NCBI GenBank assembly: GCA_004321885.1
Contig: SCQK01000013.1
Location: 32,001-96,000, forward strand
DNA: 64,000 nucleotides
Reading direction: 5' to 3'
Source of the DNA: Patescibacteria group bacterium
Lineage (GTDB): Bacteria; Patescibacteriota; Patescibacteriia; Magasanikbacterales; GWA2-37-8
Shown here: positions 39,220 through 56,379 of the stretch, one piece after another
Position numbering within the stretch: position 1 is the first letter of the stretch
How the letters are laid out: the number at the start of each line of letters is the position of its first letter
Made by a program: the position numbers and the translations under genes
The notes under the pieces: model-generated
What the model was told of the DNA's origin: nothing
Databases searched by the model: none
The model's input: only the letters and a program-made list of their open reading frames with translations

Positions 39220-39582
39220 CTACTTTACCAAGCGATTTTTGCCCAACAAATTTAAAATTTTAACAATCTCTTTCTTTAATTTTGGTATATCGTTCTCAAC
39301 GATTTTCCAAACCAGATTAATATCAACTCCAAAATATTCGTGAATGAGGACGTCCCGCGTACCGGCAATTTTTTTCCATTCTACCTGAGGATGCTTCTTT
39401 TTAAAACCAGCTGGCAAGCTTTTGCATGCTTCACCGATTATTTCCAAGCGGCGAATGATCGCGTCTTGAATTGTGGTTGAATCAAAAAAAAATTTTGGCG
39501 TTAATTTCGCCGCATTTTTTTCTATTTCTTCAATACTGGTTAAAATATATTCAAGAAAAAATTCAGGCTGTCTTTTTGCCAT
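39220..39582 (-). CDS. HepT-like (DUF86) toxin of a MntA/HepT nucleotidyltransferase TA pair.
   Basis: Rx4HxY motif (RDVLIHEY). Overlaps the upstream MntA gene. Confidence 0.8.
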   Translation of the reverse strand: MAKRQPEFFLEYILTSIEEIEKNAAKLTPKFFFDSTTIQDAIIRRLEIIGEACKSLPAGFKKKHPQVEWKKIAGTRDVLIHEYFGVDINLVWKIVENDIPKLKKEIVKILNLLGKNRLVK

Positions 39583-39877
39583 AAATTACCTTTTGCCCGC
39601 TCAAAATCGTCTTTCGCAATAACGGGTTGATGCCGCCGTATGAAAGCACGTCTACTCGCAAACCGAGTTTGTCTTCCAGCTCTAATTTTAAACCAACCAA
39701 ATCTAATAATGATTTATTTTTTTGTAATTTTACAAGGAGATCCAAGTCGCTTTTTTTGGTCTGTTCGCCTCGGGCGAAAGACCCAAAAATCGCGGCCTTT
39801 GTCACCCCGTTTTTTTTAAGAATCGGAAAAATTTTTTTGTTTAACGTTTTTAAGGTCATAGTTGAAATTATTACCAA
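39563..39877 (-). CDS. MntA-like minimal nucleotidyltransferase (antitoxin).
   Basis: GSFARGE...DLDLLV (GSx9-13DxD) motif. Confidence 0.8.
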   Translation of the reverse strand: MVIISTMTLKTLNKKIFPILKKNGVTKAAIFGSFARGEQTKKSDLDLLVKLQKNKSLLDLVGLKLELEDKLGLRVDVLSYGGINPLLRKTILSGQKVIYGKKTA

Positions 39878-39941: not shown

Positions 39942-41000
39942 CTATTTTTTCTTCAACGTCGTTATCGGCCTACTTTGAGTAATGTATACTGTACCGCTTT
40001 CCATGGCCCATTCAATATCACAAGGGAAACCATAGTGTTGCTCAATTTTCTTGCACACCTTGGCCACTTCAATAATTTCTTTGCCGGTCAGCTTCTGCTT
40101 ACCCCCCTCTTTCTCACTCAACTCAATCCATTTGTTGGAGTCTCTCCCCTTTATAAGGGGAGAGTTAGTGAGGGGTAATTTCGCTTTCACCAACTTCTTC
40201 GTCTGTACTCCAACATTTATATCTACAATACTCATTTCGCTTTTGGAAACAATATAACTGTCGGGTGTAATCTGGCCGCTCACAATCGCTTCGCCCAATC
40301 CAAACCCGGCCTCAATAATCATCTGGTCGGGGTCTTCAGTAACCGGGTGCACAGTAAAGGCGATGCCCGAAATTTCCGACTGCACCATTTTCTGCACCAC
40401 TACCGCGACCGAAACATAATGGTCAATCAGTTTTTTTTCGTGACGATAAAAAATCGCGCGGGGGGTGAAAAGCGAAGACCAGCATTGCTTAACTTTTTCA
40501 ACAACGTTAACGCGCGTGGTGTTCAAATAGGTTTCCAGCTCCCCGGCCCAACTGGCCACGTCGCTGTCCTCGGCCGTAGCGCTGCTTCTCACCGCCACCA
40601 GGTTGTCATCCTGAACTTGTTTCAGGATCCCCGTTCGCCGTCTGTCATTCAGACCCCGCTTAGCGGGGGAGGAATCCCTCCCGCCCAACTCATCAAACGC
40701 CCCCAATATCTCATTCTCCAAATCTTTCGGCATGGGCGTGTCGTGTATCACATCGCGCAAAACATTACTCGCCTTGTCCACGCTGTTGGTGTCTTCGGGA
40801 TCCACGTCAGCCAATCGCGCCTCAATCTCTTCTTTCAATTTCGTTTCCTCAATAAATCTGTCAAACGCGCTCGCCAATACCACAAAACCCGGCGGCACAC
40901 GCAGTTTCGCTTTAGTCATCTCGCCAAGCGAAGCGCCCTTCCCGCCCGCGCTGGCCACATCTTTCTTGGAAATATCCTTAAAAAATTTTATGTGAGGCAT
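39942..41000 (-). CDS. Stand-alone PEP-synthase/PPDK N-terminal ATP-grasp (nucleotide-binding) domain protein. Carries two in-frame palindromic insertions.
   Basis: VASAGGKGASLGEM...VAVRSSATAED...CDIEWAMESGTVYITQSRP is collinear with the N-domain of the ppsA at 53413..56379 and stops at the domain boundary. Insertions sit at 40143-40177 (family 2) and 40607-40632 (family 3). Confidence 0.8.
   Translation of the reverse strand: MPHIKFFKDISKKDVASAGGKGASLGEMTKAKLRVPPGFVVLASAFDRFIEETKLKEEIEARLADVDPEDTNSVDKASNVLRDVIHDTPMPKDLENEILGAFDELGGRDSSPAKRGLNDRRRTGILKQVQDDNLVAVRSSATAEDSDVASWAGELETYLNTTRVNVVEKVKQCWSSLFTPRAIFYRHEKKLIDHYVSVAVVVQKMVQSEISGIAFTVHPVTEDPDQMIIEAGFGLGEAIVSGQITPDSYIVSKSEMSIVDINVGVQTKKLVKAKLPLTNSPLIKGRDSNKWIELSEKEGGKQKLTGKEIIEVAKVCKKIEQHYGFPCDIEWAMESGTVYITQSRPITTLKKK
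40143..40177. repeat. Family-2 palindromic repeat (TCTCCCCTTTATAAGGGGAGAGTTAGTGAGGGGT), in-frame in the ATP-grasp ORF.
   Basis: Shared with 54371-54409; a variant sits at 27169-27220; a related core lies at 34730-34765. Confidence 0.8.
40607..40632. repeat. Family-3 palindromic repeat (CATCCTGAACTTGTTTCAGGATCCCC), in-frame in the ATP-grasp ORF.
   Basis: Identical to 62591-62616 and near-identical to 63041-63066. Confidence 0.85.
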
Positions 41001-41036: not shown

Positions 41037-41459
41037 CTATTTAATATATTCACCGATGATCTTCATAAACTTTTTTATATCTCCACTTTCCGCTTTTAGC
41101 TCGGTCAAAAATCGTTTCATGTCAATGTCTTCGTACTTGTGCACTATCCTGTTGCGCAAACCGACTATCGGAGCCAGTTTTAGAGCAAACGCCATGGGCA
41201 AAATTTTATTCTGGCCAAGCGTGATAAATGTGCTTTGATAATCTTCGGGCGCCTGCAAATTTTTCTCGGCGATAATATGCGTGTTGATATCTACCATACA
41301 GTCCACAATGAGCTGAAACAAGCGCTCAATCGCGTGCAATTTCGTCTCATCCTGAATTAAATCAAAAACATCGTCTTCTAAAAGCGCGTCCAACTCTTTC
41401 TGATACCCGCCGATGTCGGTGAGTTTGTTGTAAATAAGCGTTTTGTTGGTCATACACAC
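41037..41459 (-). CDS. HepT-like (DUF86) toxin, second copy.
   Basis: RNRIVHKY (Rx4HxY). Confidence 0.75.
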   Translation of the reverse strand: MCMTNKTLIYNKLTDIGGYQKELDALLEDDVFDLIQDETKLHAIERLFQLIVDCMVDINTHIIAEKNLQAPEDYQSTFITLGQNKILPMAFALKLAPIVGLRNRIVHKYEDIDMKRFLTELKAESGDIKKFMKIIGEYIK

Positions 41460-41462
41460 AAT

Positions 41463-41864
41463 TTAAGCCAAAAATTTTTGAAGTTGTTTATGCCTTAATT
41501 CATAAAGCGGTTTCGCCTCAACATATCTCTTAAACGCGTACATGCGAAATTTGGCAAACTCGCCGACTTTATCCTCGTATAGAGGAACTCCGTCTCGCCC
41601 TATTTGCAGCATAAGTAACGGCGACGCTCCGCGCGCGTTCACCACTTCCACGTCGCCGCGGCCAAATATATGGCAAAAATTTTCCCGCAACCCGGCTTCT
41701 TCATAATAAGAAATTGGCCCTTTTGTTTTGACGGCAATATCAATGTCGCTGTATTTATGCGTTTTTCCGCGCGCGGCCGAACCAAATAATACGACGAAAT
41801 CAAGACCAGCTTGTTTAGCCGCCTTTTTTATCGCTGTCTTTGTTGTTGAATTTATGACTTTCAT
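41463..41864 (-). CDS. MntA-like nucleotidyltransferase antitoxin, second copy.
   Basis: GSAARGKTHKYSDIDIAV. Confidence 0.8.
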   Translation of the reverse strand: MKVINSTTKTAIKKAAKQAGLDFVVLFGSAARGKTHKYSDIDIAVKTKGPISYYEEAGLRENFCHIFGRGDVEVVNARGASPLLMLQIGRDGVPLYEDKVGEFAKFRMYAFKRYVEAKPLYELRHKQLQKFLA

Positions 41865-41908: not shown

Positions 41909-42229
41909 TTAATCAATTTTTCTCACAATTCCCTTCTCCGCGTCCACCTCCACCATATCGCCATTTTTAATCTTCCACAAAATTTCTTCCGAAAGACCGA
42001 CAATCGCCGGTTTGTTATTTTCGCGCGCCACAATAGCCGCGTGAGAAGTTACCCCGCCATGCACTGCCAAAATCGCCTTCACTTTTTTAGCCAGCGCCGC
42101 GTTTGGTTTGACTTGATTCAATAACACAATATTCTCTTCCGTGCAATGAGCAAATTGGTCAGTATGATTAATAATACAAACCAGCCCGCTCGCCTTGCCG
42201 GGACAAGCAGAAATTCCTTTGAATTGCAT
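41909..42229 (-). CDS. Stand-alone PEP-utilizing-enzyme mobile (phosphohistidine swivel) domain protein.
   Basis: ACPGKASGLVCII...HGGVTSHAAIVARENNKPAIVG...GDMVEVDAEKGIVRKID; 106 aa. Confidence 0.8.
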   Translation of the reverse strand: MQFKGISACPGKASGLVCIINHTDQFAHCTEENIVLLNQVKPNAALAKKVKAILAVHGGVTSHAAIVARENNKPAIVGLSEEILWKIKNGDMVEVDAEKGIVRKID

Positions 42230-42492
42230 AAATTATAAATAATGGCTTTGTTCTGCCATTATTTTACTCTTACTCTTGACAAAAGTCAAAAAATGTGCTA
42301 TATTGTTTTGTTGTGGTTTATTGGAAAATTGCGCTTTATTGCGCTATTTTCCGGCTATAACGTGAGTGTGTTGTTTTTTGAAAATTTGAGGTTTCTTTGG
42401 CCAGAAGTTGAATGCGTAATGCGAATATCTTTTGTTCGTAATGCGCAGTCAACTTCCACGCCCCACCGATGGGGCACACCAAGGAGAGGAAG

Positions 42493-43140
42493 ATGAAGAC
42501 CACGGTGCTGTTCACGAGGCACGAGGACCACAAAGACCAGGTCCTCCTGCCGGACGCGGTCGAGAGAGCGCGCATGCGCGGTCTGCGCCTGCGTGAGAAG
42601 GACTACAAGATCGACCGGGTCAAGGGCTCGCCCCTGCCCCGCGCCGATGCCACCGCCACCGAGATGATGACCGGCTACGGCCAGACCACGGACATCGAGC
42701 GCGAGGCGCGCCTCGGCGACTTCAAATCCGATCCAAGGACGCCGAAGGAGGCGGTGAAGGAGCTCAAGGCGAACGCGGTGGCCAAGCACGGGGATGACTC
42801 CGACTCCAACTTGGCCAAGGAGCTCATCAACACCCCCGCCCTGCACGACCTCCTCTTCGCCCGCGCGAAGGAAGGCGCCGAGGCCCTGCTGGAGATGGCC
42901 GCCGCCAACCCGGGCAAGACCATCCTGGCCGTGAGCCACGGCGTGGCCCGCATGGAGATCGTCCTGCGCTACCTGCGGGGCGTCCGCGACACCGCGCTCC
43001 TGGACATCGTCCCGGAGCTCATCGACCGCGGCGAGGTCATCAAGCTGACCTTCGAGGTCTCGGAAGAGTGGGACGACCTCGCCGAGACGCACCCGGCGCG
43101 GGCCGAGTTCGTCTCGGCCGAGCCCCTCCCGCTCCTCTAA
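42493..43140 (+). CDS. Histidine phosphatase superfamily (PGAM/SixA-like) protein on a GC-rich foreign cassette.
   Basis: RHE and SHG motifs (VLFTRHEDH, AVSHGVA). Local GC is about 65% against about 40% in the flanks. RBS AAGGAGAGG lies just upstream. Confidence 0.65.
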   Translation: MKTTVLFTRHEDHKDQVLLPDAVERARMRGLRLREKDYKIDRVKGSPLPRADATATEMMTGYGQTTDIEREARLGDFKSDPRTPKEAVKELKANAVAKHGDDSDSNLAKELINTPALHDLLFARAKEGAEALLEMAAANPGKTILAVSHGVARMEIVLRYLRGVRDTALLDIVPELIDRGEVIKLTFEVSEEWDDLAETHPARAEFVSAEPLPLL

Positions 43141-43261
43141 CCCCCCATCTCGCCCGCGTTCCGCGGGCAACTCCAAACACAACTCACTGACACGGCGGTA
43201 CGCATCGCGCGACCGCCCAACTCTCAATGCTTTTCAACGAAAAACATTGAGCGTTACAAAA

Positions 43262-43293
43262 AATCCTTCGCGTTTACGAAGGATTTTTTGTTT
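43262..43293 (+). terminator. Rho-independent terminator after the histidine phosphatase (TCCTTCG-CGTTTA-CGAAGGA plus a T-run).
   Basis: Read directly. Confidence 0.55.
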
Positions 43294-43319
43294 CTCAATT
43301 TTAATACCAGCGCGCTATT

Positions 43320-44858: not shown

Positions 44859-46082
44859 TTAAATTTTTCTCACAATCCCTTTCTCCGCGTCCACCTCCAC
44901 CATATCGCCGTCTTTTAAAACCTTAGTCGCGATTTTCGTGCCGATAATACAAGGTATACCTAACTCACGGCTGACGATGGCAGCATGCGCGGTTAACCCT
45001 CCCTCGTCGGTCACGATAGCGGCCGCCTTTTTGACCGCCGTTATCAACGACGGCGTGGTCATGGATGAAACTAAAATATCACCCTTCTGCATCTTGACCT
45101 GATCTTCCCGCGTGATAACAATTTTGACCTTGCCGCGCACCTTTCCCTTGGATGCCACGAAGCCAATAATTTTATCCACCACCGCTGTTTTGTCTTCTTC
45201 AAAATAAAGCTTAAAATAATTCTGCGCCTTTTCGCCGCTTAAAATTTTTAATTTTCTCCGGCTGATCAGCAATATATAAAATTGTTGGCGGCGTTTCATT
45301 TCGCTTTCGGGCATTTTCTTGCCACCCAAATAATCGCGCAAGCTGACCGGATCGTACCAATCCAATTCAGCCAATTCTTTTTCGTTGTTGATGACCTTTC
45401 GCAAATGATCTAATAGCTGATCGTAAAGATAAGACGACACTCTTTCCCCCATTTCGTAAAAGTAAGTGAACCATGATAAAATTTCCGCAAGCTCTTTTTC
45501 TTTGGCGGTTAATTTTAGCCGTCGTGCAAGATCCTCTCTTTTTCTAATCAATCGCGGACTAGAACAATGCAATTGGTTTAATAGCCCGACAACCGCTTTC
45601 GGCACTGATAAAGTTGATAAGACATCGTCCAGCTCGCGCGCCGATACTTTCGCCGCCAGTAATTTTTTCAGCCGCTGTGCAACAGACTGCTCACCCCAGT
45701 AGCTATAGACAATAGCGCCACGCCCATAAGCGTGATATTTCATGAACAAACTGATGTAACTCCTCAAATCTTTGCGGGTCAAATTTTTATTCTCGTACTT
45801 TCTGCCCCAGTTATAACCTTGGATTAGCAACTTAACTATAATGTCACCCAAACGAGAAATATTTTTCCCTTTAAATTCTCGCAGAATAATTTTCTGCTGT
45901 CTTTTTTTGTCCGCGGGGTCAAAGTATAACGAGGTAACTCTGCCGCGGCCGACAATCGGACTTCTGGCTATTTTCGCCCGCCCAAATTTACCAATGCTCT
46001 GCGCATAAGCAATGGTGCGAAATCCGCGATCAAGCAAAGTATTTTCACGTGTTAATTGTTTGACGTATTTGACTTTGGACAT
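44859..46082 (-). CDS. Unknown N-domain plus C-terminal PEP-utilizers swivel domain (paralog 2).
   Basis: C-terminus: KGKVRGKVKIV...DEGGLTAHAAIVSRELGIPCIIG...GDMVEVDAEKGIVRKI. Confidence 0.7.
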   Translation of the reverse strand: MSKVKYVKQLTRENTLLDRGFRTIAYAQSIGKFGRAKIARSPIVGRGRVTSLYFDPADKKRQQKIILREFKGKNISRLGDIIVKLLIQGYNWGRKYENKNLTRKDLRSYISLFMKYHAYGRGAIVYSYWGEQSVAQRLKKLLAAKVSARELDDVLSTLSVPKAVVGLLNQLHCSSPRLIRKREDLARRLKLTAKEKELAEILSWFTYFYEMGERVSSYLYDQLLDHLRKVINNEKELAELDWYDPVSLRDYLGGKKMPESEMKRRQQFYILLISRRKLKILSGEKAQNYFKLYFEEDKTAVVDKIIGFVASKGKVRGKVKIVITREDQVKMQKGDILVSSMTTPSLITAVKKAAAIVTDEGGLTAHAAIVSRELGIPCIIGTKIATKVLKDGDMVEVDAEKGIVRKI

Positions 46083-46239: not shown

Positions 46240-46869
46240 CTATTTCGGCCATCTTTGCACCCAAATCTCTTTGTCTGCCACGTATTTATAATAATTCGTC
46301 CAATCCTTTTTATTTTGAACTTTTCTGCTGACAACGCCGGTGATGTAATCAGCTACCTGCAGCAAATTATTTGATTTTGAACGCTGTTGTTTTAATTTTT
46401 TTATAACTTTCTTCCCGTTCGTATTTAACCGAACGCGCAAATATTTGGCAAGACGGCTGCGAAAATCCGGCGAACCTGACTTATCAAGTATTACTGTGGC
46501 GTTATTCAAATGCGGAAGCGCGTTGTTAAAAACCATCTGGCAGGCGTATTTGTAAAACGATTCTTTGGTGATAAAACCTGGCCCCCACAATTTATTTGGG
46601 TCTTTGTCTATCACGACTGCGAAGTATATAAAGCGATACGGCTGGATGGCCGATAAAAATCTTTCTTTTATCTTATCCGAATTAAAAGAAAAATGAAATT
46701 CAAAATCGGACGGCAAATCAAGCTCTTTTCGCAATAAATTAATCCGTTGGTCGCAAGATAGGGCGTCTTCATTGTCATCAAAAATAACCAAAGAAATTAT
46801 AAAATATCTGCTGGAACCGGATTCTGTTTTACGGCCGGTATCGCCGGCTTCATCTATAAAGACGAGCAT
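46240..46869 (-). CDS. DUF3800-like protein.
   Basis: N-terminal FIDEAGDTG hallmark (an IDESG-type start); 209 aa. Embedded in the paralog operon. Confidence 0.5.
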   Translation of the reverse strand: MLVFIDEAGDTGRKTESGSSRYFIISLVIFDDNEDALSCDQRINLLRKELDLPSDFEFHFSFNSDKIKERFLSAIQPYRFIYFAVVIDKDPNKLWGPGFITKESFYKYACQMVFNNALPHLNNATVILDKSGSPDFRSRLAKYLRVRLNTNGKKVIKKLKQQRSKSNNLLQVADYITGVVSRKVQNKKDWTNYYKYVADKEIWVQRWPK

Positions 46870-46879: not shown

Positions 46880-48361
46880 TCAAATTTTCTTCACAATCCC
46901 CTTTGTCGCATCCACTTCCACCATGTCGCCGTCTCTGAAAACCTTAGTGGCGATTTTCGTGCCAATCACGCAGGGAATACCGAGTTCGCGCGAGACGATA
47001 GCCGCATGGCAGACAATGCCGCCCATATCAGTAACTATCGCCGACGCCTTTTTCATGGCCGCCACGATTTCCGGTATGGTCATTTCCGAAACCAACACAT
47101 TTCCACTTACCATTTTTTTCATATCCTCTATGGTATTTACAATCGTTACTTTCCCTTTGGCCGCGCCCGGAACCGCGGTTTGCCCCCGCAGTTCTTGAAC
47201 TGATAAATCCACTTCTTCCTCACGAGCCATATTCATTTTTGACATTACGTATCTCGCTTCTTCGCCAACAATAAACTTGGATCCATTGGCGTCCACATAT
47301 AGTAAACTATATTTCCAACGTTCATTTAATTCATCCGCGTCGCACTGCCCGCTTCTAATCGCAGAAGGAACTTCTTGTGGCAAAAAATATCGCGCTTGAC
47401 GAATTGAAATAAGCAATCTTTTTGCTACTTCCCGCAGTATTTTATCAAGCGCATAAAATCCTAAAAATTGGTGCTCTTTGCTCCATGCCTTTTGATAAAC
47501 AAGGTCTTTGGTAACGCGAAATAAATGCTTGTGTTTTTCATCAATTTTTAAATTATCAAACCAGGCGTTTTGTTTTTTTTCAGCTTCAAAAAACTGATTT
47601 TTCTGACGCAAAATTTCTTGCTCAATATCGGTCCCAGCTTCTATAATCTCCTGAATATGCTTTACCACATCCTTCTCTGTCCAAGTCGGCCCTTCACAGG
47701 CAAAGGGCAAAAAACAATACTTCCGCGCATGCGCCGCAATTTTTTCCTCCCCAACGGATAATTGAATTTTGCCTTCCACAACTTCCTTCGCCAGCTCATA
47801 AAGTTCCAAATGTTCCTGTGTACCCAAAGCCGGCTTTGTCAGCGTGAGTAAATCAGCCAAAACAAGAACGGCATCTATATCAGGATTAAACTTTTTTAAA
47901 TAGTTCAATAAATATATTCCTAATTGTTCAAACGGAATTTCCAAAAGCCAACTCGGAACACGATATAAGTGTAATTCCGTCTGTAACGGCAACAGTTGTT
48001 CGTAAATTCGCGCGAGTTCTTCGTTGGATAACTTTGATAAATCACTCTCAATAATTTTCCAGGCATAATTTCTAAGCTGCGGTAAAATTTTATCTGATTT
48101 TACATGCATATCATCAATGAGCCGGGGATTTTCCACAATTGCTTCTAAAGTTTTTTTACCGGCCACTATCCATTCATTGCGAATATAGAATAACTTTGTC
48201 GCGCCGTTTTCATACAAAGGAAGGCTGTGTGCCACATCGGCAAGCCCCAGCTTGCTCAATTCGCTTGTCATGGCGCGAAAAGGCGGCTCCAATGTAATGG
48301 GAGGATACTGATACAACTTCTCAATCATTATCCATTCTTTTCTTAACAATTCTTCATTCAT
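46880..48361 (-). CDS. Unknown N-domain plus C-terminal PEP-utilizers swivel domain (paralog 3).
   Basis: C-terminus: AVPGAAKGKVTIV...DMGGIVCHAAIVSRELGIPCVIG...GDMVEVDATKGIVKKI. Confidence 0.7.
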   Translation of the reverse strand: MNEELLRKEWIMIEKLYQYPPITLEPPFRAMTSELSKLGLADVAHSLPLYENGATKLFYIRNEWIVAGKKTLEAIVENPRLIDDMHVKSDKILPQLRNYAWKIIESDLSKLSNEELARIYEQLLPLQTELHLYRVPSWLLEIPFEQLGIYLLNYLKKFNPDIDAVLVLADLLTLTKPALGTQEHLELYELAKEVVEGKIQLSVGEEKIAAHARKYCFLPFACEGPTWTEKDVVKHIQEIIEAGTDIEQEILRQKNQFFEAEKKQNAWFDNLKIDEKHKHLFRVTKDLVYQKAWSKEHQFLGFYALDKILREVAKRLLISIRQARYFLPQEVPSAIRSGQCDADELNERWKYSLLYVDANGSKFIVGEEARYVMSKMNMAREEEVDLSVQELRGQTAVPGAAKGKVTIVNTIEDMKKMVSGNVLVSEMTIPEIVAAMKKASAIVTDMGGIVCHAAIVSRELGIPCVIGTKIATKVFRDGDMVEVDATKGIVKKI

Positions 48362-49836
48362 ATTTTTCTCACAACCCCACTTGTCGCGTCAACCTTCACC
48401 ATATCGCCGTCTTTGAGTACGGAAGTGATTTTTTTCACGCCCACCACGCAGGGAATTTTAAATTCGCGCGCCACAATGGCCGCATGGCAAGTGATGCCGC
48501 CGTCCTCCGTCACGATAGCCGAGGCGCGTTTCATAGCCGGCAACATCGCCGGATAAGTCGTGAGCGCCAACATAATATCTCCTTTTTCCACCTTATCCGC
48601 GTCTGTTAACGATAGAACAACTTTTACTTTGCCTGAAACAAAACCCGGATACGCGGTGGCGCCCTTAAATCCGTCTTCAACATTTAATTTTATTTCTTCA
48701 ATATCCAAGCCGGCTATAATCGCGTCGGCCTCTTTGCCGTAATAATACTTTGTTCCGCTTTCAGTCGCTTCAATCACGCAATGCTTAATTCTCTCATTTA
48801 TTAAATCAATGTCCAATTTGTCACGCAATAGAGCGTTTTCCATTTCGTCCGTCAAAAAATGATTCGCTTGTTTATGCGATATATTCAATCGCTTGGCAAT
48901 TTCTTTGGTGAGCATGTCCAAAACATAGTGCCCATGCCAAATACAATATTTTCTGAGATCCTTAAGCCAAATAATCTCGCGGGCGATGGCGAACAATCGC
49001 GCGAGCTGCGGGGGCAAGTTGATTTCGGAAATTACTTTATTTTGTTCCGCGATGAGTTTCTCGTAGCGTTCTTTTTCTTCTTTGAGCATTTGGTCCGGGT
49101 CAGTTACGCGAGGCAGGGCTTCCTTAACCTGCTCTTCATAATATTTCAAATCATAAGCCGGCCCGATATAGCCGTATGGCGTCCAGCGCCATTTTTGCCA
49201 ATGCTTTGTTATTAATTCTTTGTACTGGATTCCCGCTTTCGCGGGAATGACAACGGCCTTAAGCAACTCCAAAAAATCCAATTGCTCCAACTGGACAAAA
49301 TTCTGTTTAGCCGGAGTGGTAAGCAGAACAAAATATTCTATTGTTTTTACCGGATCATCTATGCCTAAACTTTTTAAATGTTCTCCTAATTTTTGCTTTA
49401 AATACTCCGAAAAAATCATGCCGTCGCTGTCCACAAACCAAGTGGTGGCGATTGATGGAAGATGACCTTGCTCGGTAAGCCATAAAAGCGTTTTGTAGTA
49501 ATCAAAAAGCTCGGCATTGTTTAGCGCGCCAAAATCTTTTCCCACCAAACTTTGAGCGTAATTAAAATAATCCCAATTTAATTTTTCGGTTCGCGCATGC
49601 AATTCCTCTGCCCACTGCGGCTCGGTAATAATTTTTTCCGCAATCCATTTCACCGTCGTTTCTATTACTTCAACCGGCACATACGCCGTATCCCTGTCGT
49701 TTCTATAATCTTGATACCAAACAGTAAATAATTGTTTGCCATTCTTTTTTGGAATATGCGCAAAAATCCCTTGGGGGTAATAGCCCAGCATGTTAAAATT
49801 CACGTCGCGGATATCAAAATTTATTCGCCATTTCAT
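48358..49836 (-). CDS. Unknown N-domain plus C-terminal PEP-utilizers swivel domain (paralog 4).
   Basis: C-terminus: AYPGFVSGKVKVV...EDGGITCHAAIVAREFKIPCVVG...GDMVKVDATSGVVRKI. Confidence 0.7.
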   Translation of the reverse strand: MKWRINFDIRDVNFNMLGYYPQGIFAHIPKKNGKQLFTVWYQDYRNDRDTAYVPVEVIETTVKWIAEKIITEPQWAEELHARTEKLNWDYFNYAQSLVGKDFGALNNAELFDYYKTLLWLTEQGHLPSIATTWFVDSDGMIFSEYLKQKLGEHLKSLGIDDPVKTIEYFVLLTTPAKQNFVQLEQLDFLELLKAVVIPAKAGIQYKELITKHWQKWRWTPYGYIGPAYDLKYYEEQVKEALPRVTDPDQMLKEEKERYEKLIAEQNKVISEINLPPQLARLFAIAREIIWLKDLRKYCIWHGHYVLDMLTKEIAKRLNISHKQANHFLTDEMENALLRDKLDIDLINERIKHCVIEATESGTKYYYGKEADAIIAGLDIEEIKLNVEDGFKGATAYPGFVSGKVKVVLSLTDADKVEKGDIMLALTTYPAMLPAMKRASAIVTEDGGITCHAAIVAREFKIPCVVGVKKITSVLKDGDMVKVDATSGVVRKI

Positions 49837-49838: not shown

Positions 49839-50882
49839 TTATCCGAAGTAGTTTTTCACCGCGAATTCAAATTGCTGGACAAATAATTCCTTAAAGTAGC
49901 GCAAACTATTTTGTTCGTAAAATAAAAGCAACGCCTTCTTGTATTCGGCGCTATCAACGCTTCTAAACGACAAAGGACACCAGTCATGCGCCAAGAGAAT
50001 CGCATTGCCCAAAATTCTGCCTGTTCTTTTATTTCCATCCACGAACGGCTGAATATATGAAATCATCGCCGCCGCGATTATGGCCTTGATTATCGGTTGC
50101 TCCTCTGTATTTACCGCGGAAATCATTTTTTCCATCGCTTCTTTTATTTGGAATTGGTTGTCTATCGGCTTATAATTTGTGCCGACAATACCCACTACAA
50201 TCTTCCTGTAATCATCCGTCACGCCCAAATCTTTTATCAACAAAGAATGCAGGGCGCGTATCAGCGCGGCGGTCGGTTTCTTGAATTTATTTTTATTTTT
50301 CAAAACAAAATCAAGCGCGTATTTATGATTCAATATCATCGTCGCCTCCGCTTTAGTGTGCCCTTTCGCCTCTTTCATTTCCTTTAACAATACTTCCGTA
50401 TCCAATAACGAATAAGTATTACCTTCAAGTTCAGATGATTTCCAGCTCAATTCAATCAAAAGTCGCTCTAATTCTTTTTGAGCGACATCGACCGCCATTT
50501 TGTCTGTTTTTTGTTGATACGCCTTGTTGCGCTTTTCTAAATCTTTTAATTCTTCCTTGTTAAACAAGCCGGATAAATGGTCAAAAATTTCCCAGTCAAA
50601 TCTGTATTTTATTTTTCTTTCATCCACCGGAACCGCAAAATAATCCGCGGCATTAACATAACGCAGAAGCGGAGTTTTAATTTTTGACGAATATGTGACA
50701 CTGCGAGCCTTGCCTCTCTTTTCTATCTGTCCGATCGAGAGTAAAATTTCCAATTCACGCAGGATTGTCGGTTTTGACAATCTGTCAAATTTACCCGCTA
50801 ATCCTTTAATAAGTTCGGCCGCTGTTACCTGTTCATTAGCCTGTACAAATTCCAAAATCGCTTTTTGACGTTTTGTAAGCAT
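49839..50882 (-). CDS. Fic/Doc-family protein with an N-terminal wHTH. The Fic motif has Gln in place of the catalytic His.
   Basis: IQPFVDGNKRTGRILGN matches HPFx(D/E)GN(G/K)R except for H to Q. First gene of the paralog operon. Confidence 0.7.
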   Translation of the reverse strand: MLTKRQKAILEFVQANEQVTAAELIKGLAGKFDRLSKPTILRELEILLSIGQIEKRGKARSVTYSSKIKTPLLRYVNAADYFAVPVDERKIKYRFDWEIFDHLSGLFNKEELKDLEKRNKAYQQKTDKMAVDVAQKELERLLIELSWKSSELEGNTYSLLDTEVLLKEMKEAKGHTKAEATMILNHKYALDFVLKNKNKFKKPTAALIRALHSLLIKDLGVTDDYRKIVVGIVGTNYKPIDNQFQIKEAMEKMISAVNTEEQPIIKAIIAAAMISYIQPFVDGNKRTGRILGNAILLAHDWCPLSFRSVDSAEYKKALLLFYEQNSLRYFKELFVQQFEFAVKNYFG

Positions 50883-51004: not shown

Positions 51005-52186
51005 TCAAGCAATCACTCCCCCGCCCAAACATTCACCTTTAAGATAAAATACCGCGAACTGACCCGGGGTGACGGCGCGTTGGGGGTGAGTGAAAGTAAC
51101 TAAAGGGAGGGAAACAGTGCATCTCTGCAAAGGTTGACGGTGACGCAGGCGCACCTGGCATTTTAGCGGGAAATTGGGTGTGTTTCCACTTATCCAATTT
51201 ACGTCTTTGACCCTTGCTTCCATACTGTACAGCATATCGCTTTTCTCGTCGCCGACAATCAGTTCGTTCTTTTTTATATTCTTACCGACAACAAAGAGAG
51301 GCAACGCGCTGGATTCCCCCGTACTTAGTCGGGGGAATGACAAACTGATACGTTGGCCGATGGTGTAAAACGCCAGGCCATCGTGCTGGCCCACGACTTT
51401 ACCCCTCTCTCGCCACCGCCGCGAGGCGGGGCCCCGCCGTGGCGGTGGCTCTCCCCTTGTAAAGGGGAGAGAGAGCACTATGTTCCCGGGTTTGAATTTT
51501 ATCTTTTTCATCAAAAATTCTTTCATCGGCACTTCGCCGATGAAACAAATGCCCATGCTTTCTTCTTTTTCCGCCGTGGGCAAGCCGAATTTTTTTGCCA
51601 GGGCGCGCACCTGTGGTTTGGCATACTCACCGATGGGAAACAAAACGTGGCGCAGTTGTGCTTGAGATAATTGATTCAAAAAATATGTTTGGTCTTTATT
51701 GAGATCTTTTGACTGCAAGAGGTGCAGAACCCCACCCCCCTTTCGTTCCCCCTTTATTAAGGGAGGAAGAAACGCGTAGTGTCCAGTCGCTAATTTATCA
51801 AACCCTAACGCACGGGCTTTATCCAGCCAGGCGCCAAACTTGATGAATTTATTGCACAAAACATCCGGATTGGGCGTGCGGCCGGCCTTGTACTCGCTAT
51901 ACATGTAATCCAAAACATCGCGCTTGTATTTGCGCGTAAAATCCAGCTTCAAAAGTTTAATGCCCAGTTTGGCGGCCACGCGCAAGGCGTCGCGATAATC
52001 GCCGGTCCAACAGCGCGATCCCACCCCCCCTTCGCCCCCCCCTCTGGCATGAGGGGATATTTTCTCATCATAGTTCACCATGAACGCGCCGCTTACGTTA
52101 TATCCTTGCTTAACCAAAAGAGCGGCGGCAACGGACGAATCCACGCCGCCGGACATGGCGACTAAAATTTTTTGCTTTTTTTTCAT
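51005..52186 (-). CDS. mnmA: tRNA-specific 2-thiouridylase MnmA with several in-frame palindromic insertions.
   Basis: ILVAMSGGVDSSVAA PP-loop. Gly/Pro/Arg-rich insertions at 51310-51345 (family 1), about 51410-51478, about 51740-51770 and about 52020-52060. Confidence 0.85.
   Translation of the reverse strand: MKKKQKILVAMSGGVDSSVAAALLVKQGYNVSGAFMVNYDEKISPHARGGGEGGVGSRCWTGDYRDALRVAAKLGIKLLKLDFTRKYKRDVLDYMYSEYKAGRTPNPDVLCNKFIKFGAWLDKARALGFDKLATGHYAFLPPLIKGERKGGGVLHLLQSKDLNKDQTYFLNQLSQAQLRHVLFPIGEYAKPQVRALAKKFGLPTAEKEESMGICFIGEVPMKEFLMKKIKFKPGNIVLSLPFTRGEPPPRRGPASRRWRERGKVVGQHDGLAFYTIGQRISLSFPRLSTGESSALPLFVVGKNIKKNELIVGDEKSDMLYSMEARVKDVNWISGNTPNFPLKCQVRLRHRQPLQRCTVSLPLVTFTHPQRAVTPGQFAVFYLKGECLGGGVIA
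51310..51345. repeat. Family-1 palindromic repeat, copy D, in-frame inside mnmA (encodes LSFPRLSTGESS).
   Basis: The reverse complement equals copy C. Confidence 0.85.
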
Positions 52187-52253
52187 AACAATATAATACC
52201 ACACAAAACAAAAACTGCCAGCCTTGCGGCCGGCAGTTTCTTGTTTGCAGTAA

Positions 52254-53250: not shown

Positions 53251-53324
53251 GGGTCGGTAGTTCAACTGGTTAGAGCACTGCCCTGTCACGGCAGAAGTTG
53301 CGGGTTCGAGTCCCGTCCGACCCG
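53251..53324 (+). tRNA. tRNA-Asp (anticodon GTC).
   Basis: Hand-folded cloverleaf. Acceptor GGGTCGG/CCGACCC, U8, D-arm, anticodon stem CTGCC/GGCAG with loop CTGTCAC, T-loop TTCGAGT, discriminator G. No encoded CCA. Confidence 0.85.
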
Positions 53325-53346
53325 CTTATTATTCCATCAAAGCAAG

Positions 53347-53412: not shown

Positions 53413-56379
53413 CTATTTAACCGAGAACAAAGTAAACCAGCCGAGCATCTCGTCAAAGGTTTTTTTGTCGCCAGAAATTTCTATGATGTTTTTGGATTTT
53501 TTGAAACCTTGGGGATAAAGCTCCATTAATTTTGTGCCGTCGGCGCGAGTATAAATTTTGGCCGGAATATTTTGCCATACAGTTGTGGTAGACGAACCGG
53601 ACAGAGAACCCCCGGTCGCCTCAGGCGACCTCGGGATGACAGCTGAGGCTATTATAAACCGGCTTAACTTATCGGCCGACTGAAAACGCACCACCTTGTC
53701 CCCGTGCTCCACTGTCCAGGCCGCCGGATATTGCAAAGTAAACCGCGCGAAAGAATCCTCGCTGTACAAACTCTTGGGCTGTTCGCTTTCCCGCTTGCGA
53801 ATCTCGGCCGCCAGCTGTTCCAGCTGCGTTTTCAATTTTCCGGTTTCTTCCACGATGGCTTTTTTCACGTTTTCGTTCACAATCTGATTATTGGGCTGGC
53901 AGGCGTAGCCGCCCAGCGTGGAAAGCAAACCCACCACGCCAAAAATCAACAACAATTTCGTAGCCGCCGCTATTTTTATAATGGCGCCTTTTTTGGCCGA
54001 AACTTTTTTCTCCAGCCCGGCCACCCGCTCGCGCGCCTTTAGCACCGTGTCCGGATTAAGCGAAATGCTGTCTATCCCCTCTTGCACCAAAAAATCGGCG
54101 AACTCGGGATAGTCAGAGGGCGCCTGACCGCAGATGCCCACCTTGCGTCCATACTTGTGCGCCGTGGAAATCACCTGTCGTATCAAAGTTTTTACGGCCT
54201 CGTTTCTTTCATCATACACATGGCTCACCAAAGCGCTGTCGCGATCAACACCTAGGGTCAACTGGGTTAAATCGTTGGAGCCGATGCTAAAGCCGTCAAA
54301 AATCTGGCTGTACTCTTTGGCCAAAATCACGTTGGAAGGAATCTCGCACATCACGTAAACTTTCAAGCCAGACCCCTCACTAACTCTCCCCTTATAAAGG
54401 GGGGAGGAGCTTCCTCGCTCCAATCCGAATTCTTTCATCACAGCCAGCACCTTTTTTCCCTCGGCCACGGTGCGGCAAAACGGCACCATCACGATTATAT
54501 TTTTCAGCCCCCACTCTTCACGCGCCATTTTCAATGCCGCGCATTCCAGCCTAAAACCGGGCTTGTAGGCCGGGTCATAATAGCGCGAAGCCCCGCGCCA
54601 GCCCAGCATGGGGTTTTCTTCTTTGGGCTCGTACAAATGCCCGCCGATAAGCGTGGCGTATTCATTGGTTTTGAAATCAGACAAGCGCACAATAACATCG
54701 CGCGGATAATACGCGGCCGCGATAAAAGCGATGCCCTCGGCCAGCTTGTCCACGCAGTACCGGGCCTTGTCTTTGTAGCCGATGGTCAGCTCGTCAATTT
54801 TGGCTTTCAATTCCCGGTCCGCCAATTTTTTGTAATTTACCAAAGCGAGCGGATGGATTTTTATAAAATTGGTGAAAATAAATTCCTCGCGCGCCAGGCC
54901 CACGCCGTCACTGGGGATATGCGACAAAGCAAAAGCGCTGCCCGGGTCGCCCACGTTCATCATTATTTTGGTGCGGGTTTTGGCAATGGCTTTTATTTCC
55001 TGTTTTTCTATTTCAAAAGGCAGGCGCCCTTTGTACACATAACCGGCCTCGCCCTCGGCGCAGGAAACAGTCACTTCCTGCCCGGGCTTCACAATCTGAC
55101 GCGCCCTGGCCGCGCCCACCAGGCACGGCGTGCCCAGCTCGCGGCTGACAATAGCCGCGTGCGAGGTCTTTCCCCCCTGCTCCGTGACAATGGCCGAGGC
55201 AATGCGCATTATCGGCTCCCAATCCGGGTCCGTAATGCGCGTAATCAAAACTTCGCCTGGCCGAAAGCTCTTCATCTGCCTGGGCGAGTTTATTACCCGC
55301 GCTTTGCCCTGACCGATTTTTTGCCCGATGCTGATTCCCTCCACCAAAACTTTGCCTTTTTGTTTCAAATGGTACTGCTCTATTACATTTATATTGTCGC
55401 GCGAACGCACTGTTTCGCTGCGCGCCTGCACGATATAGAGTTTTCCGCTCCGTCCGTCTTTGGCCCACTCTATATCCATGGGCCGCTGGTAATGCTCTTC
55501 TATTTGCATGCCCCACTTGGCCAGTTGCAAGACTTCGTCCGGGGAAACGCAGAACCGGTGCTGGTCCGGCATTTTTACTGTTTCCTGCCTGGTGCCTGTT
55601 TTTCCGTAAACAAGTTTTACTTCTTTGCTCCCCAGCCGCTTGCTGATGATTGATTTCAATCCGCGCCGAACCCCATCTTTGAAAACAAAAAACTGGTCCG
55701 GTATCACCCGGCCCTTGACCACATATTCGCCCAAGCCATAAGCCGCGTTTATAAGCACCACGCCCTTAAAACCCGACTCGGTGTCCAGAGTGAACATCAC
55801 GCCGCTGGCGCCCAAATCCGAACGCACCATTTCCTGCACGCAAACCGAAAGCGCCACAGCCGCGTGGTCAAAGCCCTTGTCCACGCGATAGGAAATGGCG
55901 CGGTCCGTAAAAAGAGAAGCAATACATTTCTGGCAGGCTAAAATAAGTTCATCGGCGCCGACGACATTCAAATAGGTTTCCTGCTGGCCGGCAAAACTGG
56001 CGTCGGGCAAATCCTCGGCCGTGGCCGACGAACGCACGGCCACTGAACTCTTGCCCAATTCTTTATACGCCGCTTTCAATTCATCTGCTATTATTCCTGG
56101 AAACTCGGCGCTTAAAACCATCTGGCGAATCTTGGCGCCGGCCGCGGCCAGCGATTTCACGTTTTTGCCGTCGGTCTTGTTTAGAATTTCTTTTATTTTT
56201 TTATCCAATTTGTCCTCACGCAAAAAAAGCCGGTAGGCGTCGGCAGTAAGAGCGAACCCGTTTGGCACGGCCACTCCATTGGCAGTCAAATTATTATACA
56301 TCTCGCCCAGCGACGCGGTCTTGCCGCCCACGCTGGGAATGTCTTTGATGCCGAGTTCCTTAAACCAGCGGATATACAT
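53413..56379 (-). CDS. ppsA: Phosphoenolpyruvate synthase (pyruvate, water dikinase), full length, with an extra C-terminal extension of about 190 aa that contains a TM helix.
   Basis: ATP-grasp N-domain, swivel (QGGKTSHAAIVSRELGTPC) and PEP-binding TIM barrel (GFSIGSNDLTQL...GICGQAPSDYPEF). A family-2 insertion sits at 54371-54409. The C-terminal tail reads IIKIAAATKLLLIFGVVGLLSTLGGYAC and so on. Confidence 0.9.
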   Translation of the reverse strand: MYIRWFKELGIKDIPSVGGKTASLGEMYNNLTANGVAVPNGFALTADAYRLFLREDKLDKKIKEILNKTDGKNVKSLAAAGAKIRQMVLSAEFPGIIADELKAAYKELGKSSVAVRSSATAEDLPDASFAGQQETYLNVVGADELILACQKCIASLFTDRAISYRVDKGFDHAAVALSVCVQEMVRSDLGASGVMFTLDTESGFKGVVLINAAYGLGEYVVKGRVIPDQFFVFKDGVRRGLKSIISKRLGSKEVKLVYGKTGTRQETVKMPDQHRFCVSPDEVLQLAKWGMQIEEHYQRPMDIEWAKDGRSGKLYIVQARSETVRSRDNINVIEQYHLKQKGKVLVEGISIGQKIGQGKARVINSPRQMKSFRPGEVLITRITDPDWEPIMRIASAIVTEQGGKTSHAAIVSRELGTPCLVGAARARQIVKPGQEVTVSCAEGEAGYVYKGRLPFEIEKQEIKAIAKTRTKIMMNVGDPGSAFALSHIPSDGVGLAREEFIFTNFIKIHPLALVNYKKLADRELKAKIDELTIGYKDKARYCVDKLAEGIAFIAAAYYPRDVIVRLSDFKTNEYATLIGGHLYEPKEENPMLGWRGASRYYDPAYKPGFRLECAALKMAREEWGLKNIIVMVPFCRTVAEGKKVLAVMKEFGLERGSSSPLYKGRVSEGSGLKVYVMCEIPSNVILAKEYSQIFDGFSIGSNDLTQLTLGVDRDSALVSHVYDERNEAVKTLIRQVISTAHKYGRKVGICGQAPSDYPEFADFLVQEGIDSISLNPDTVLKARERVAGLEKKVSAKKGAIIKIAAATKLLLIFGVVGLLSTLGGYACQPNNQIVNENVKKAIVEETGKLKTQLEQLAAEIRKRESEQPKSLYSEDSFARFTLQYPAAWTVEHGDKVVRFQSADKLSRFIIASAVIPRSPEATGGSLSGSSTTTVWQNIPAKIYTRADGTKLMELYPQGFKKSKNIIEISGDKKTFDEMLGWFTLFSVK
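54371..54409. repeat. Family-2 palindromic repeat, in-frame in ppsA (encodes SSPLYKGRVSEGSG).
   Basis: The reverse complement matches 40143-40177. Confidence 0.8.

What the first reader, a model, noticed from the sequence alone, without database searches (positions are those of the whole stretch)
42460..43300. Abrupt GC-rich (about 65%) cassette encoding a histidine phosphatase, inserted among the phosphohistidine-domain genes
Base composition jumps from about 40% GC to about 65% GC at the RBS of ORF 42493..43140 and drops back after a Rho-independent terminator at about 43262-43293. Codon usage is G/C-ending and unlike every other gene in the window, which implies recent horizontal acquisition. 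The product belongs to the histidine phosphatase (PGAM/SixA) superfamily (RHE...SHG). SixA-type enzymes dephosphorylate phospho-His on HPt and NPr carriers. Its position between the stand-alone swivel domain and the four swivel-domain paralogs suggests it could reset or regulate their phospho-His state. That functional link is inference.
Basis: partly seen in the sequence, partly recalled or inferred. Interest (0 to 1): 0.6.

Follow-up and report, generated by a model that had tools for sequence, protein, structure and literature searches.

The report
Persistently GC-rich phosphatase gene in CPR bacteria
A small phosphatase gene that looks freshly imported because it is far more GC-rich than its genome has in fact been inherited at the same spot across a whole group of tiny CPR bacteria, and something keeps it about 24 GC points above each host genome, which standard models of genome evolution do not predict.

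Summary
ORF 42493-43140 (+) encodes a histidine-phosphatase (His_Phos_1) protein with intact catalytic residues. It is 68% GC (GC3 94%), the only such island in the 64 kb window, and it ends at a bidirectional terminator.

The interpretation "recent horizontal acquisition" is refuted. In 13 distinct loci from Magasanikbacteria-like CPR bacteria, orthologs down to 39% identity occupy the same slot: PPDK_N (-) | phosphatase (+) | array of swivel-domain genes (-). Every one is a GC island. Gene GC equals flank GC + 0.240 +/- 0.024 (r = 0.80).

Synonymous sites are saturated between distant orthologs yet stay G/C. C<->G transversions make up 50% of fourfold differences, against 17% in the neighbouring PPDK_N. 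S->W changes are fixed about 3.8-fold less often (p = 0.0017). The gene co-diverges with PPDK_N. No donor lineage, plasmid, phage or att site was found. The GC-rich state is therefore actively maintained, and it is centred on the CDS.

The neighbours form a split rifampin-phosphotransferase-like small-molecule dikinase: one ATP-grasp protein and several substrate-domain+swivel proteins. The phosphatase is its conserved partner. Its fold resembles capped small-molecule phosphatases, not SixA.

Why the gene is held GC-rich remains unresolved.

The parts
42451..43250 (.). GC-rich island (about 0.59-0.71 GC), the only one in the 64 kb window
42493..43140 (+). Histidine phosphatase (His_Phos_1) gene, 215 aa; GC 0.68, GC3 0.94; catalytic R9, H10, R50, H149
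42276..42304 (+). Promoter-like site TTGACA-17-TATATT with TG (11 of 12 matches); candidate promoter of the phosphatase gene. Consensus match only.
42312..42492 (+). AT-rich but strongly structured putative 5' leader (z = -5.6). Includes the 22-nt-arm inverted repeat 42404-42456 and an upstream anti-SD paired with the SD AAGGAGAGG at about 42479-42488 (SD pairing probability 0.95 in this window only).
43141..43255 (+). 3' UTR with three hairpins, GC-rich as far as about 43228 (whole 3' region z = -8.5). The same hairpin architecture is seen in orthologs.
43256..43291 (.). Bidirectional intrinsic-terminator hairpin (perfect 15-nt arms, A-run and T-run) between the convergent phosphatase gene and the first swivel paralog
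42355..43227 (-). 290-aa antisense ORF: a shadow ORF, not a gene. Its codons are the reverse complements of the sense codons, so stops arise only from TTA, CTA or TCA. It carries stops in 5 of 13 orthologs.
39942..41000 (-). Stand-alone PPDK_N ATP-grasp protein (I-component of a split dikinase). In most orthologous loci it lies directly divergent from the phosphatase gene.
41909..42229 (-). Stand-alone PEP-utilizers swivel (phospho-His) domain, 106 aa
43320..44828 (-). H-like component 1: helical substrate-type domain plus C-terminal swivel domain. Whole-length fold match to rifampin phosphotransferase.
44859..46082 (-). H-like component 2 (N-terminal domain plus swivel)
46880..48361 (-). H-like component 3 (N-terminal domain plus swivel)
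48358..49836 (-). H-like component 4 (N-terminal domain plus swivel)

Best explanation
The cassette is a lineage-specific histidine-phosphatase gene. It is a fixed, vertically inherited partner of a split rifampin-phosphotransferase-like small-molecule dikinase locus in Magasanikbacteria-type CPR bacteria. That locus has one stand-alone ATP-grasp PPDK_N protein and several proteins made of a substrate-type domain plus a phospho-His swivel domain.

Its high GC is not a remnant of recent transfer. It is a stable state, held about 24 GC points above whatever the host genome's GC is. A continuing, gene-specific filter removes G/C->A/T changes, including at synonymous sites.

Because the elevation is centred on coding sequences and fades in the spacers, I think the filter is most likely selection on the coding mRNA's composition or codon set. 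This would give the gene a coding regime deliberately unlike the host's, setting or conditioning translation or mRNA stability. I think regional biased gene conversion is less likely.

Shown: vertical descent, conserved synteny, maintained composition, an intact active site, and the RPH-like nature of the neighbours.

Inferred: that selection on mRNA or codons is the maintaining force. Also inferred: that the enzyme removes phosphate installed by the dikinase, more likely from the phosphorylated small-molecule product, as in the Cre and Hpe pathways, than from the swivel His.
For: Synteny PPDK_N(-) | His_Phos(+) | PEP-utilizers array(-) holds in all 13 distinct loci, down to 39% identity.

Every ortholog is a GC island: gene GC 0.53-0.68 against flanks 0.33-0.45. 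The offset is 0.240 +/- 0.024 and gene GC tracks flank GC, r = 0.80.

Phosphatase identity co-varies with identity of the adjacent PPDK_N, r = 0.67, with the same clades. PPDK_N itself has host-like GC3 of 0.26-0.58.

Fourfold sites at identical residues are saturated between distant orthologs (observed identity is about what base frequencies predict) yet remain 85-98% G/C. C<->G changes are 50% of fourfold differences, against 17% in PPDK_N.

On terminal branches, S->W relative to S->S is 20:29, against 44:17 in PPDK_N (odds ratio 0.27, p = 0.0017). The S->S per-site rate is the same in both genes.

Spacers between adjacent GC-rich CDSs are host-like, 0.40-0.47. GC3 ramps from 0.71 to about 0.9 over the first 50 codons.

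The codon choices are not the host's preferred ones. The ribosomal-protein set uses AAA, GAA, TTT, ATT and TTG; the phosphatase uses AAG, GAG, TTC, ATC and CTS.

No high-GC donor, plasmid or phage relative was found. There are no att or target-site-duplication repeats.

Catalytic residues are conserved. The model has pLDDT 92.7 and matches CobC, TIGAR, PhoE, dPGM and RosC.

The adjacent paralog's six best fold hits are all rifampin phosphotransferase, aligned over 545-585 columns. Sequence hits agree.

Two-component RPH-like dikinases (HpeHI, CreHI, PpsAB) are an established architecture, and their phosphorylated products are dephosphorylated later in the pathway (PMC12167813).
Against: No direct evidence identifies the maintaining force.

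CDS folding is only weakly more stable than synonymous shuffles: mean z about -1.6, against -0.7 for the PPDK_N control. SD sequestration is strong in the window but is not a family trait.

Most orthologs carry a strong canonical SD, AGGAGG, which sits awkwardly with a simple "keep expression low" reading.

Polarised counts still show more S->W (20) than W->S (3) on terminal branches. Very slow erosion, or segregating deleterious changes, cannot be excluded. One lineage (L022) has GC3 of only 0.50.

GC1, GC2 and the first ~80 nt of the 3' UTR are also elevated. A purely codon-level force does not predict this.

The co-divergence test is a correlation of pairwise identities, not a tree reconciliation.

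The enzyme's substrate is entirely inferred.
Confidence: 0.5

Rival explanations
1. Recent horizontal acquisition from a high-GC donor that has not yet ameliorated.
For: Extreme compositional contrast and G/C-ending codon usage unlike any other gene in the window. GARP-rich protein composition.
Against: Orthologs at 39-62% identity occupy the same syntenic slot in 13 distinct AT-rich genomes and are all GC islands. Synonymous sites are saturated yet still G/C. The gene co-diverges with PPDK_N. Gene GC tracks host GC. No high-GC relatives were found in 5.8 billion or 1.8 billion proteins, nor in plasmids or phages. No mobility signatures.
Confidence: 0.03
2. Recurrent replacement: an unsampled GC-rich reservoir (host bacteria or a GC-rich element) repeatedly supplies new alleles that recombine into the same slot, so each lineage's copy is always young.
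For: Some sister loci carry additional GC-rich + strand genes in the same locus type: L017 167 aa with GC3 0.96; L008 Creatininase and a 185-aa ORF. The Creatininase's more distant relatives (about 30% identity) are from Actinomycetota and Chloroflexota. The locus is an insertion hotspot. CPR hosts are reported to be GC-rich (bioRxiv 10.64898/2026.06.21.733656).
Against: Gene GC correlates with the recipient genome's GC at a constant offset, which independent imports would not produce. The clade structure matches that of PPDK_N. No reservoir sequences were detected in very large databases; the named distant relatives are all CPR. Flanks carry no recombination or att signatures.
Confidence: 0.1
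3. A local GC-biased gene conversion or mutational hotspot, without selection, drives the region GC-rich.
For: GC1, GC2 and GC3 are all raised, and the 5' and 3' edges outside the CDS (about 40-80 nt) are also raised. The offset over host GC is constant. The region is recombinationally active, with variable inserted genes between loci.
Against: The elevation is centred on CDSs with sharp edges. Spacers of 280-420 nt between two adjacent GC-rich CDSs return to host GC, 0.40-0.47. There is a 5' GC3 ramp typical of translated sequence. Immediately adjacent genes have host-like GC3, 0.29-0.58. Effects of this size (+0.45 in GC3) are far beyond what I know to have been reported for bacterial biased gene conversion (own knowledge).
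Confidence: 0.15
4. Functional rival: the enzyme is a phospho-histidine protein phosphatase, SixA-like in role, that resets the phospho-His swivel domains of the dikinase components.
For: Its invariant association with PPDK_N and swivel-domain genes, and divergent transcription from PPDK_N. SixA acts on HPt and NPr phosphocarriers (own knowledge). HpeH alone catalyses reversible phosphotransfer via its His, so a phospho-His pool exists to be regulated.
Against: Not SixA by sequence: 16.5 bits against a cut-off of 74.5. By fold it has a roughly 75-residue helical cap and matches small-molecule phosphatases, with no SixA in the top 50. Known two-component dikinase pathways use a phosphatase on the small-molecule product (CreD from own knowledge).
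Confidence: 0.3
5. The real gene is the 290-aa antisense ORF (42355-43227, -), or the region is dual-coding, and this constrains composition.
For: A long open antisense frame exists in the window.
Against: That frame is the exact reverse complement of the sense codons, so it stays open automatically whenever TTA, CTA and TCA are absent. It has 1-6 stops in 5 of 13 orthologs. Its own GC is highest at codon position 1 (0.85), which is atypical for a gene. The sense product has a Pfam domain and a model with pLDDT 92.7.
Confidence: 0.02
6. Assembly chimera or contamination.
For: Sharp compositional boundaries in a metagenome-derived sequence.
Against: The same junctions are recovered in independent assemblies from Logan, ENA, NCBI and JGI, across many samples and species.
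Confidence: 0.01

Closest known systems
Two-component RPH-like small-molecule dikinases (HpeHI, CreHI, phenylphosphate synthase PpsAB) and their pathway phosphatases
   Same: A separate ATP-grasp (PPDK_N) protein, plus a protein carrying a helical substrate-binding domain and a C-terminal phospho-His swivel domain. A phosphatase encoded with the kinase removes the phosphate later (PMC12167813; fold match).
   Different: Here one ATP-grasp gene is accompanied by 3-5 highly divergent H-like paralogs (about 23% identity) and, in the window, a free swivel domain. The organisms are CPR bacteria with minimal metabolism, not degraders of aromatic compounds. The phosphatase is a His_Phos_1 enzyme, is transcribed convergently to the array, and is compositionally extreme. 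Substrates are unknown.
Rifampin phosphotransferase (RPH, PDB 5FBS/5HV1)
   Same: The best sequence and fold match of the neighbouring paralogs, covering the substrate-binding and swivel domains.
   Different: RPH is a single polypeptide that includes the ATP-grasp domain, and it has no associated phosphatase.
SixA phospho-histidine phosphatase
   Same: Same superfamily (His_Phos_1) and the same catalytic RH...R...H core. Plausibly a comparable role in a His-phosphotransfer context.
   Different: Fails the SixA model. It is about 55 residues longer, has a helical cap, and structurally groups with CobC, TIGAR, PhoE and dPGM.
Compositionally atypical genes interpreted as horizontally acquired islands that then ameliorate (Lawrence-Ochman model; own knowledge)
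   Same: Atypical GC and codon usage with sharp boundaries.
   Different: No phyletic patchiness, no donor and no mobility genes. The atypical composition persists through saturating synonymous divergence instead of ameliorating.
Codon-bias-based gene regulation (for example TTA codons and bldA tRNA in Streptomyces; own knowledge)
   Same: A gene set whose codon usage departs from the genome's, and is thought to make translation conditional.
   Different: Here the whole CDS (GC1, GC2 and GC3) is shifted rather than one rare codon. No cognate tRNA or regulator has been identified.

Membership tests
Histidine phosphatase superfamily, branch 1 (PF00300) | Profile score above the curated threshold | tested here: met
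   32.9 bits against a cut-off of 21.7, E 6.5e-8. The precomputed PF00300 hit is present in nearly all homologs.
Histidine phosphatase superfamily, branch 1 (PF00300) | N-terminal RHG-type motif with the nucleophilic His | tested here: met
   R9-H10-E11 in the window (RHE or RHG across the family). R9 and H10 are at least 90% conserved.
Histidine phosphatase superfamily, branch 1 (PF00300) | Second Arg and second His of the phosphate pocket | tested here: met
   R50 in the invariant SPLPRA motif aligns with the BPGM S-x-L-x-R motif. S148-H149-G150 is invariant and aligns with the BPGM AHG motif.
Histidine phosphatase superfamily, branch 1 (PF00300) | Acidic proton donor | tested here: inconclusive
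   E71 (at least 90% conserved) and the invariant D76 are candidates. No structural superposition of the active site was done.
Histidine phosphatase superfamily, branch 1 (PF00300) | PGM-like alpha/beta fold | tested here: met
   AlphaFold2 model with pLDDT 92.7. Foldseek probability 1.00 to CobC, TIGAR, dPGM and PhoE, TM 0.5-0.6.
SixA (TIGR00249) | Equivalog model score of at least 74.5 bits | tested here: not met
   16.5 bits.
SixA (TIGR00249) | Minimal capless fold of about 160 aa | tested here: not met
   215 aa with a helical insertion at H85-H138. No SixA among the top 50 fold matches.
SixA (TIGR00249) | Phospho-His protein phosphatase activity | not testable with these tools
   Needs biochemistry.
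Two-component RPH-like small-molecule dikinase locus | Stand-alone ATP-grasp (PPDK_N) component | tested here: met
   39942-41000, PPDK_N E 2.8e-94, with no other domain. Conserved next to the phosphatase in all loci where upstream sequence is available.
Two-component RPH-like small-molecule dikinase locus | Component with an RPH-type substrate-binding domain plus a C-terminal swivel domain | tested here: met
   The top six Foldseek hits are RPH over 545-585 columns (the model's pLDDT is only 73.8). phmmer hits to RPH extend N-terminal of the swivel domain.
Two-component RPH-like small-molecule dikinase locus | Conserved catalytic His in the G-rich swivel loop | tested here: met
   G454, G456 and H460 are invariant in the four window paralogs. 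The motif is as described in PMC12167813.
Two-component RPH-like small-molecule dikinase locus | ATP-dependent dikinase activity on a small molecule | not testable with these tools
   Needs biochemistry. Substrates are unknown.
Recently acquired genomic island | Atypical composition | tested here: met
Recently acquired genomic island | Absent from, or differently placed in, related genomes | tested here: not met
   Same slot in 13 of 13 distinct loci.
Recently acquired genomic island | Closest homologs in a compositionally matching donor lineage | tested here: not met
   All close homologs, and all named distant ones, are from AT-rich CPR genomes.
Recently acquired genomic island | Mobility signatures (att sites or direct repeats, integrase, tRNA flank, plasmid or phage relatives) | tested here: not met

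The most novel reading that the evidence does not exclude
The GC-rich coding regime is an adaptive, orthogonal code-usage state kept by selection for tens to hundreds of millions of years. A small set of CPR genes (this phosphatase, and in some genomes neighbouring + strand genes) is written in the codon dialect of the GC-rich host bacteria. As a result their translation is conditional, for example efficient only when host-derived RNA or tRNA is present in the episymbiont. Even without the host link, the weaker form would still be new: gene-specific selection holding synonymous sites at about 90% G/C in a roughly 40% GC genome. That would be a counter-example to the amelioration model that underlies compositional HGT detection.
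Probability: 0.12. Interest if true: 0.92.

Novelty: new variant of a known kind. Interest (0 to 1): 0.72.

Why it matters
Compositional outliers are routinely read as recent horizontal transfers. Here a textbook-looking island is instead vertically inherited and actively held at a constant offset above the host's GC, through saturating synonymous divergence. I found no precedent for this in a bacterial protein-coding gene in the searches I ran.

If selection maintains it, this is a natural system for asking what synonymous composition does for a single gene: translation gating, mRNA stability, or host-linked decoding.

Separately, the locus defines a multi-paralog split RPH-like dikinase system with a dedicated phosphatase in metabolically minimal CPR bacteria. 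Its substrates could be antibiotics or host metabolites, and identifying them would bear on how these episymbionts live.

Tried and rejected
1. Hyper-optimisation for translation. Rejected: the gene's codons are not those preferred by the ribosomal-protein, pilin and RpoA genes.

2. A conserved overlapping nucleotide element or antisense gene. Rejected: synonymous sites are saturated, and the antisense frame has stops in 5 of 13 orthologs.

3. SD sequestration as a family-wide translational brake. Strong in the window (0.95), but the family mean is 0.54 against 0.49 in controls, p = 0.30. Not supported.

4. Selection for extra mRNA structure beyond what composition gives. Mean z is -1.6, against -0.7 in the PPDK_N control. 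Too weak to claim.

5. Strand or orientation alone. Era on the + strand in L002 and L025 has host GC.

6. My impression that the extra GC-rich ORFs (L017 167 aa, L008 185 aa) are degenerate phosphatase paralogs. hhalign probability is below 1% and there is no Pfam hit. Dropped.

7. Rfam families in the leader, gene or 3' UTR. Nothing near threshold.

8. PADLOC defence models for the phosphatase, PPDK_N and the paralogs. No hits.

9. Recent polymorphism among near-identical contigs, to polarise selection. Zero SNPs in the gene, so uninformative.

10. An AFDB fold search for taxonomy. The library was unavailable.

11. GARP content of distant relatives as a proxy for gene GC. About 0.27-0.29 throughout, but uninterpretable without host baselines.
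Full report
**Observation**

The composition jump is real and unique in the window. GC in 200-nt windows goes from 0.32-0.42 just upstream to 0.585-0.71 across 42400-43199, and back to about 0.46-0.55. At 300-nt resolution, 42451-43250 is the only segment of the 64 kb that exceeds the mean by more than 0.15.

The ORF 42493-43140 (+) has GC 0.68 with GC1/GC2/GC3 of 0.68/0.41/0.94. The other 52 ORFs of at least 120 aa have GC 0.35-0.54 and GC3 0.35-0.66. The claimed terminator is a perfect 15-nt-arm inverted repeat at 43256-43291, flanked by A and T runs, between two convergent genes.

The product hits Pfam His_Phos_1 above threshold. R9-H10, R50 (in SPLPRA) and S148-H149-G150 are conserved across a 22-member family. 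It fails the SixA equivalog model (16.5 against 74.5 bits), and SixA is absent from the top 50 fold matches.

The 290-aa antisense ORF is a shadow. Its codons are the reverse complements of the sense codons, so it stays open whenever TTA, CTA and TCA are absent. It carries stops in 5 of 13 orthologs.

**The key result: not a recent import**

A search of 5.8 billion proteins found only 22-28 close clusters. This gave 13 distinct loci including the window, mostly labelled or related to Candidatus Magasanikbacteria.

In every locus the gene sits in the same arrangement. A stand-alone PPDK_N gene lies on the minus strand. The phosphatase is on the plus strand, usually directly divergent from PPDK_N. 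An array of genes ending in a PEP-utilizers swivel domain follows on the minus strand.

In every locus the phosphatase gene is a GC island: gene GC 0.53-0.68 against flanks 0.33-0.45, with GC3 0.50-0.95. This includes an ortholog only 39% identical to the window protein (L025: GC 0.63, GC3 0.90, in a 0.43 GC locus whose neighbours have GC3 0.29-0.45). Gene GC tracks flank GC (r = 0.80), with an offset of 0.240 +/- 0.024.

**Vertical descent and active maintenance**

Pairwise identity of the phosphatase co-varies with that of the adjacent PPDK_N (r = 0.67), with the same clade structure. PPDK_N itself has host-like GC3 of 0.26-0.58.

At fourfold-degenerate sites of identical residues, distant orthologs share the third base no more often than base frequencies predict. 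The sites are therefore saturated, yet 85-98% of them remain G or C. C<->G transversions are 50% of fourfold differences, against 17% in PPDK_N.

I polarised changes on terminal branches and used S->S changes as an internal yardstick, since their per-site rate is the same in both genes. S->W fixations are about 3.8-fold rarer in the phosphatase (20:29 against 44:17, Fisher p = 0.0017).

If S->W changes were neutral at the neighbour's rate, composition would have equilibrated to the host long before S<->S saturation. Recent transfer and passive slow amelioration are both excluded as the main explanation.

One caveat applies. S->W (20) still exceeds W->S (3) on terminal branches. This could reflect segregating deleterious changes, parsimony bias at skewed composition, or slow erosion. 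One lineage (L022) is down to GC3 0.50.

**No donor or mobility evidence**

An exhaustive HMM search of 1.84 billion representatives shows a graded family: 96 clusters at E <= 1e-10. All named members are CPR (Magasanikbacteria, Falkowbacteria). There are no relatives in plasmid or phage collections, no flanking direct repeats, and no adjacent tRNA gene.

**What kind of force**

The elevation is centred on coding sequence. Some sister loci carry a second GC-rich plus-strand gene next to the phosphatase, or inside the array: L017 9067-9570 with GC3 0.96, L008 5959-6804 Creatininase, and L008 7085-7642. In those loci the 280-420-nt spacers return to 0.40-0.47 GC. GC3 ramps from 0.71 to about 0.9 over the first 50 codons.

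GC1, GC2 and protein composition (GARP 0.29-0.33, regardless of host) are also shifted. So are about 40-80 nt at each edge.

The codon set is not the host's preferred one. Orientation alone does not explain the effect, because Era on the same strand has host GC.

Folding of the CDS is only slightly more stable than synonymous shuffles, relative to a control gene. SD sequestration is a feature of the window, not of the family.

I therefore favour selection on the coding mRNA's composition or codon regime over regional biased gene conversion. This is inference, and the purpose is unknown. A 2026 preprint reports that CPR codon usage is complementary to that of their GC-rich hosts and predicts poor translation of GC-rich messages in CPR cells (bioRxiv 10.64898/2026.06.21.733656). 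That makes a host-dialect gene in a CPR genome especially curious, but it does not explain it.

**The system it belongs to**

The four downstream paralogs are about 23% identical to one another and share an invariant swivel His. Their best sequence matches in the PDB are rifampin phosphotransferase entries, with alignments extending N-terminal of the swivel domain.

A model of the adjacent paralog (pLDDT 73.8) has RPH as its six best fold matches over essentially its whole length. The next matches cover only the swivel domain.

Together with the stand-alone ATP-grasp PPDK_N, this is the architecture of the two-component small-molecule dikinases HpeHI, CreHI and PpsAB. In those pathways the phosphorylated product is later dephosphorylated (PMC12167813).

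The capped fold and these precedents favour the phosphorylated small-molecule product as substrate. A phospho-His reset role remains a live rival. A separate full-length PEP synthase is present at 53413-56379, so the split system is not the organism's PpsA.

**Verdict**

The family assignment is confirmed at superfamily level, but SixA membership is not.

What is there is more interesting than the reading it replaces. It is a vertically inherited gene, tied to a split dikinase system, whose GC-rich state is actively maintained at a constant offset above host GC across a CPR clade. The mechanism and purpose of that maintenance are unresolved.

Noticed in passing
L006:9800-10003 (also L021:173-376, L011:9791-9994, L009:5063-5266, L016 and L017:9791-9994): The roughly 200-nt leader upstream of the phosphatase in one clade folds into 5 helices, including a 22-bp hairpin. 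97% of cells are paired, 11 pairs show compensatory changes, 0 of 500 shuffles reach the observed values, and slid controls give 32-44% paired. G-U pairs place the structure on the + strand. No Rfam family matches. Only 6 sequences were available, and the structure was derived from the same alignment.
   Followed up: partly
L006:10628-10790 and the aligned regions of L009, L011, L016, L017, L021; window 43141-43255: A conserved 3' UTR architecture: the motif TGGGGTACACCCACTCGA, then a GGGG...CCCC hairpin, an AT-rich hairpin with compensatory changes, and a terminator. The window's version folds with z = -8.5. It could be an RNA stability element, or a small RNA on either strand.
   Followed up: partly
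L017:9067-9570; L008:5959-6804 and 7085-7642; L024:10001-10834: Other + strand genes in the same locus type are also GC-rich: a 167-aa ORF with GC3 0.96; a Creatininase with GC3 0.71; and a 185-aa ORF with GC3 0.82. In L024 a Creatininase gene occupies the phosphatase's slot and is mildly GC-rich (0.54 against 0.44). The Creatininase's nearest relatives outside its small close family are from Actinomycetota and Chloroflexota, at about 30% identity.
   Followed up: partly
window 39220-39877 and 41037-41864 (-): Two HepT-like RNase / MNT nucleotidyltransferase toxin-antitoxin pairs are inserted on either side of the PPDK_N gene. They are absent at these positions in the orthologous loci.
   Followed up: partly
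window 46240-46869 (-) and 49839-50882 (-): A DUF3800 protein (PADLOC candidate PDC-M04A) interrupts the paralog array, and a Fic-domain protein (SoFic-like) ends it. Other loci carry Bro-N, AAA_14/DUF4143, GIY-YIG, DUF559 and T4SS coupling-protein genes here. The array is an insertion hotspot for defence and mobile genes.
   Followed up: partly
window 53413-56379 (-): A full-length PEP synthase (PPDK_N + swivel + PEP-utilizers_C, 988 aa) coexists with the split system. tRNA-Asp(GTC) lies just upstream at 53251-53325.
   Followed up: no
window 42328-42347 and 42404-42456: A tandem ATTGCGCT(T/A)T repeat, and a 22-nt-arm inverted repeat rich in AATGCG, lie between the promoter-like site and the phosphatase start. 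They could be an operator or a leader hairpin.
   Followed up: no
window 51005-52204 (-); L006:6277-7320; L009:2253-3314: The MnmA gene (tRNA U34 2-thiolation for Lys, Glu and Gln tRNAs) lies near the locus in several genomes. The phosphatase uses AAG, GAG and CAG at 86-100%, against 32-70% in the window's ribosomal-protein set and 26-52% in its other long genes. This is possibly coincidental neighbourhood conservation.
   Followed up: no
L012 (MGXQ01000082.1) and L013 (CAYHBZ010000001.1): The record titles say Gammaproteobacteria. However, the contigs carry the same CPR-type locus, and L012 is nearly identical to a Magasanikbacteria contig. The bins are probably mislabelled.
   Followed up: no
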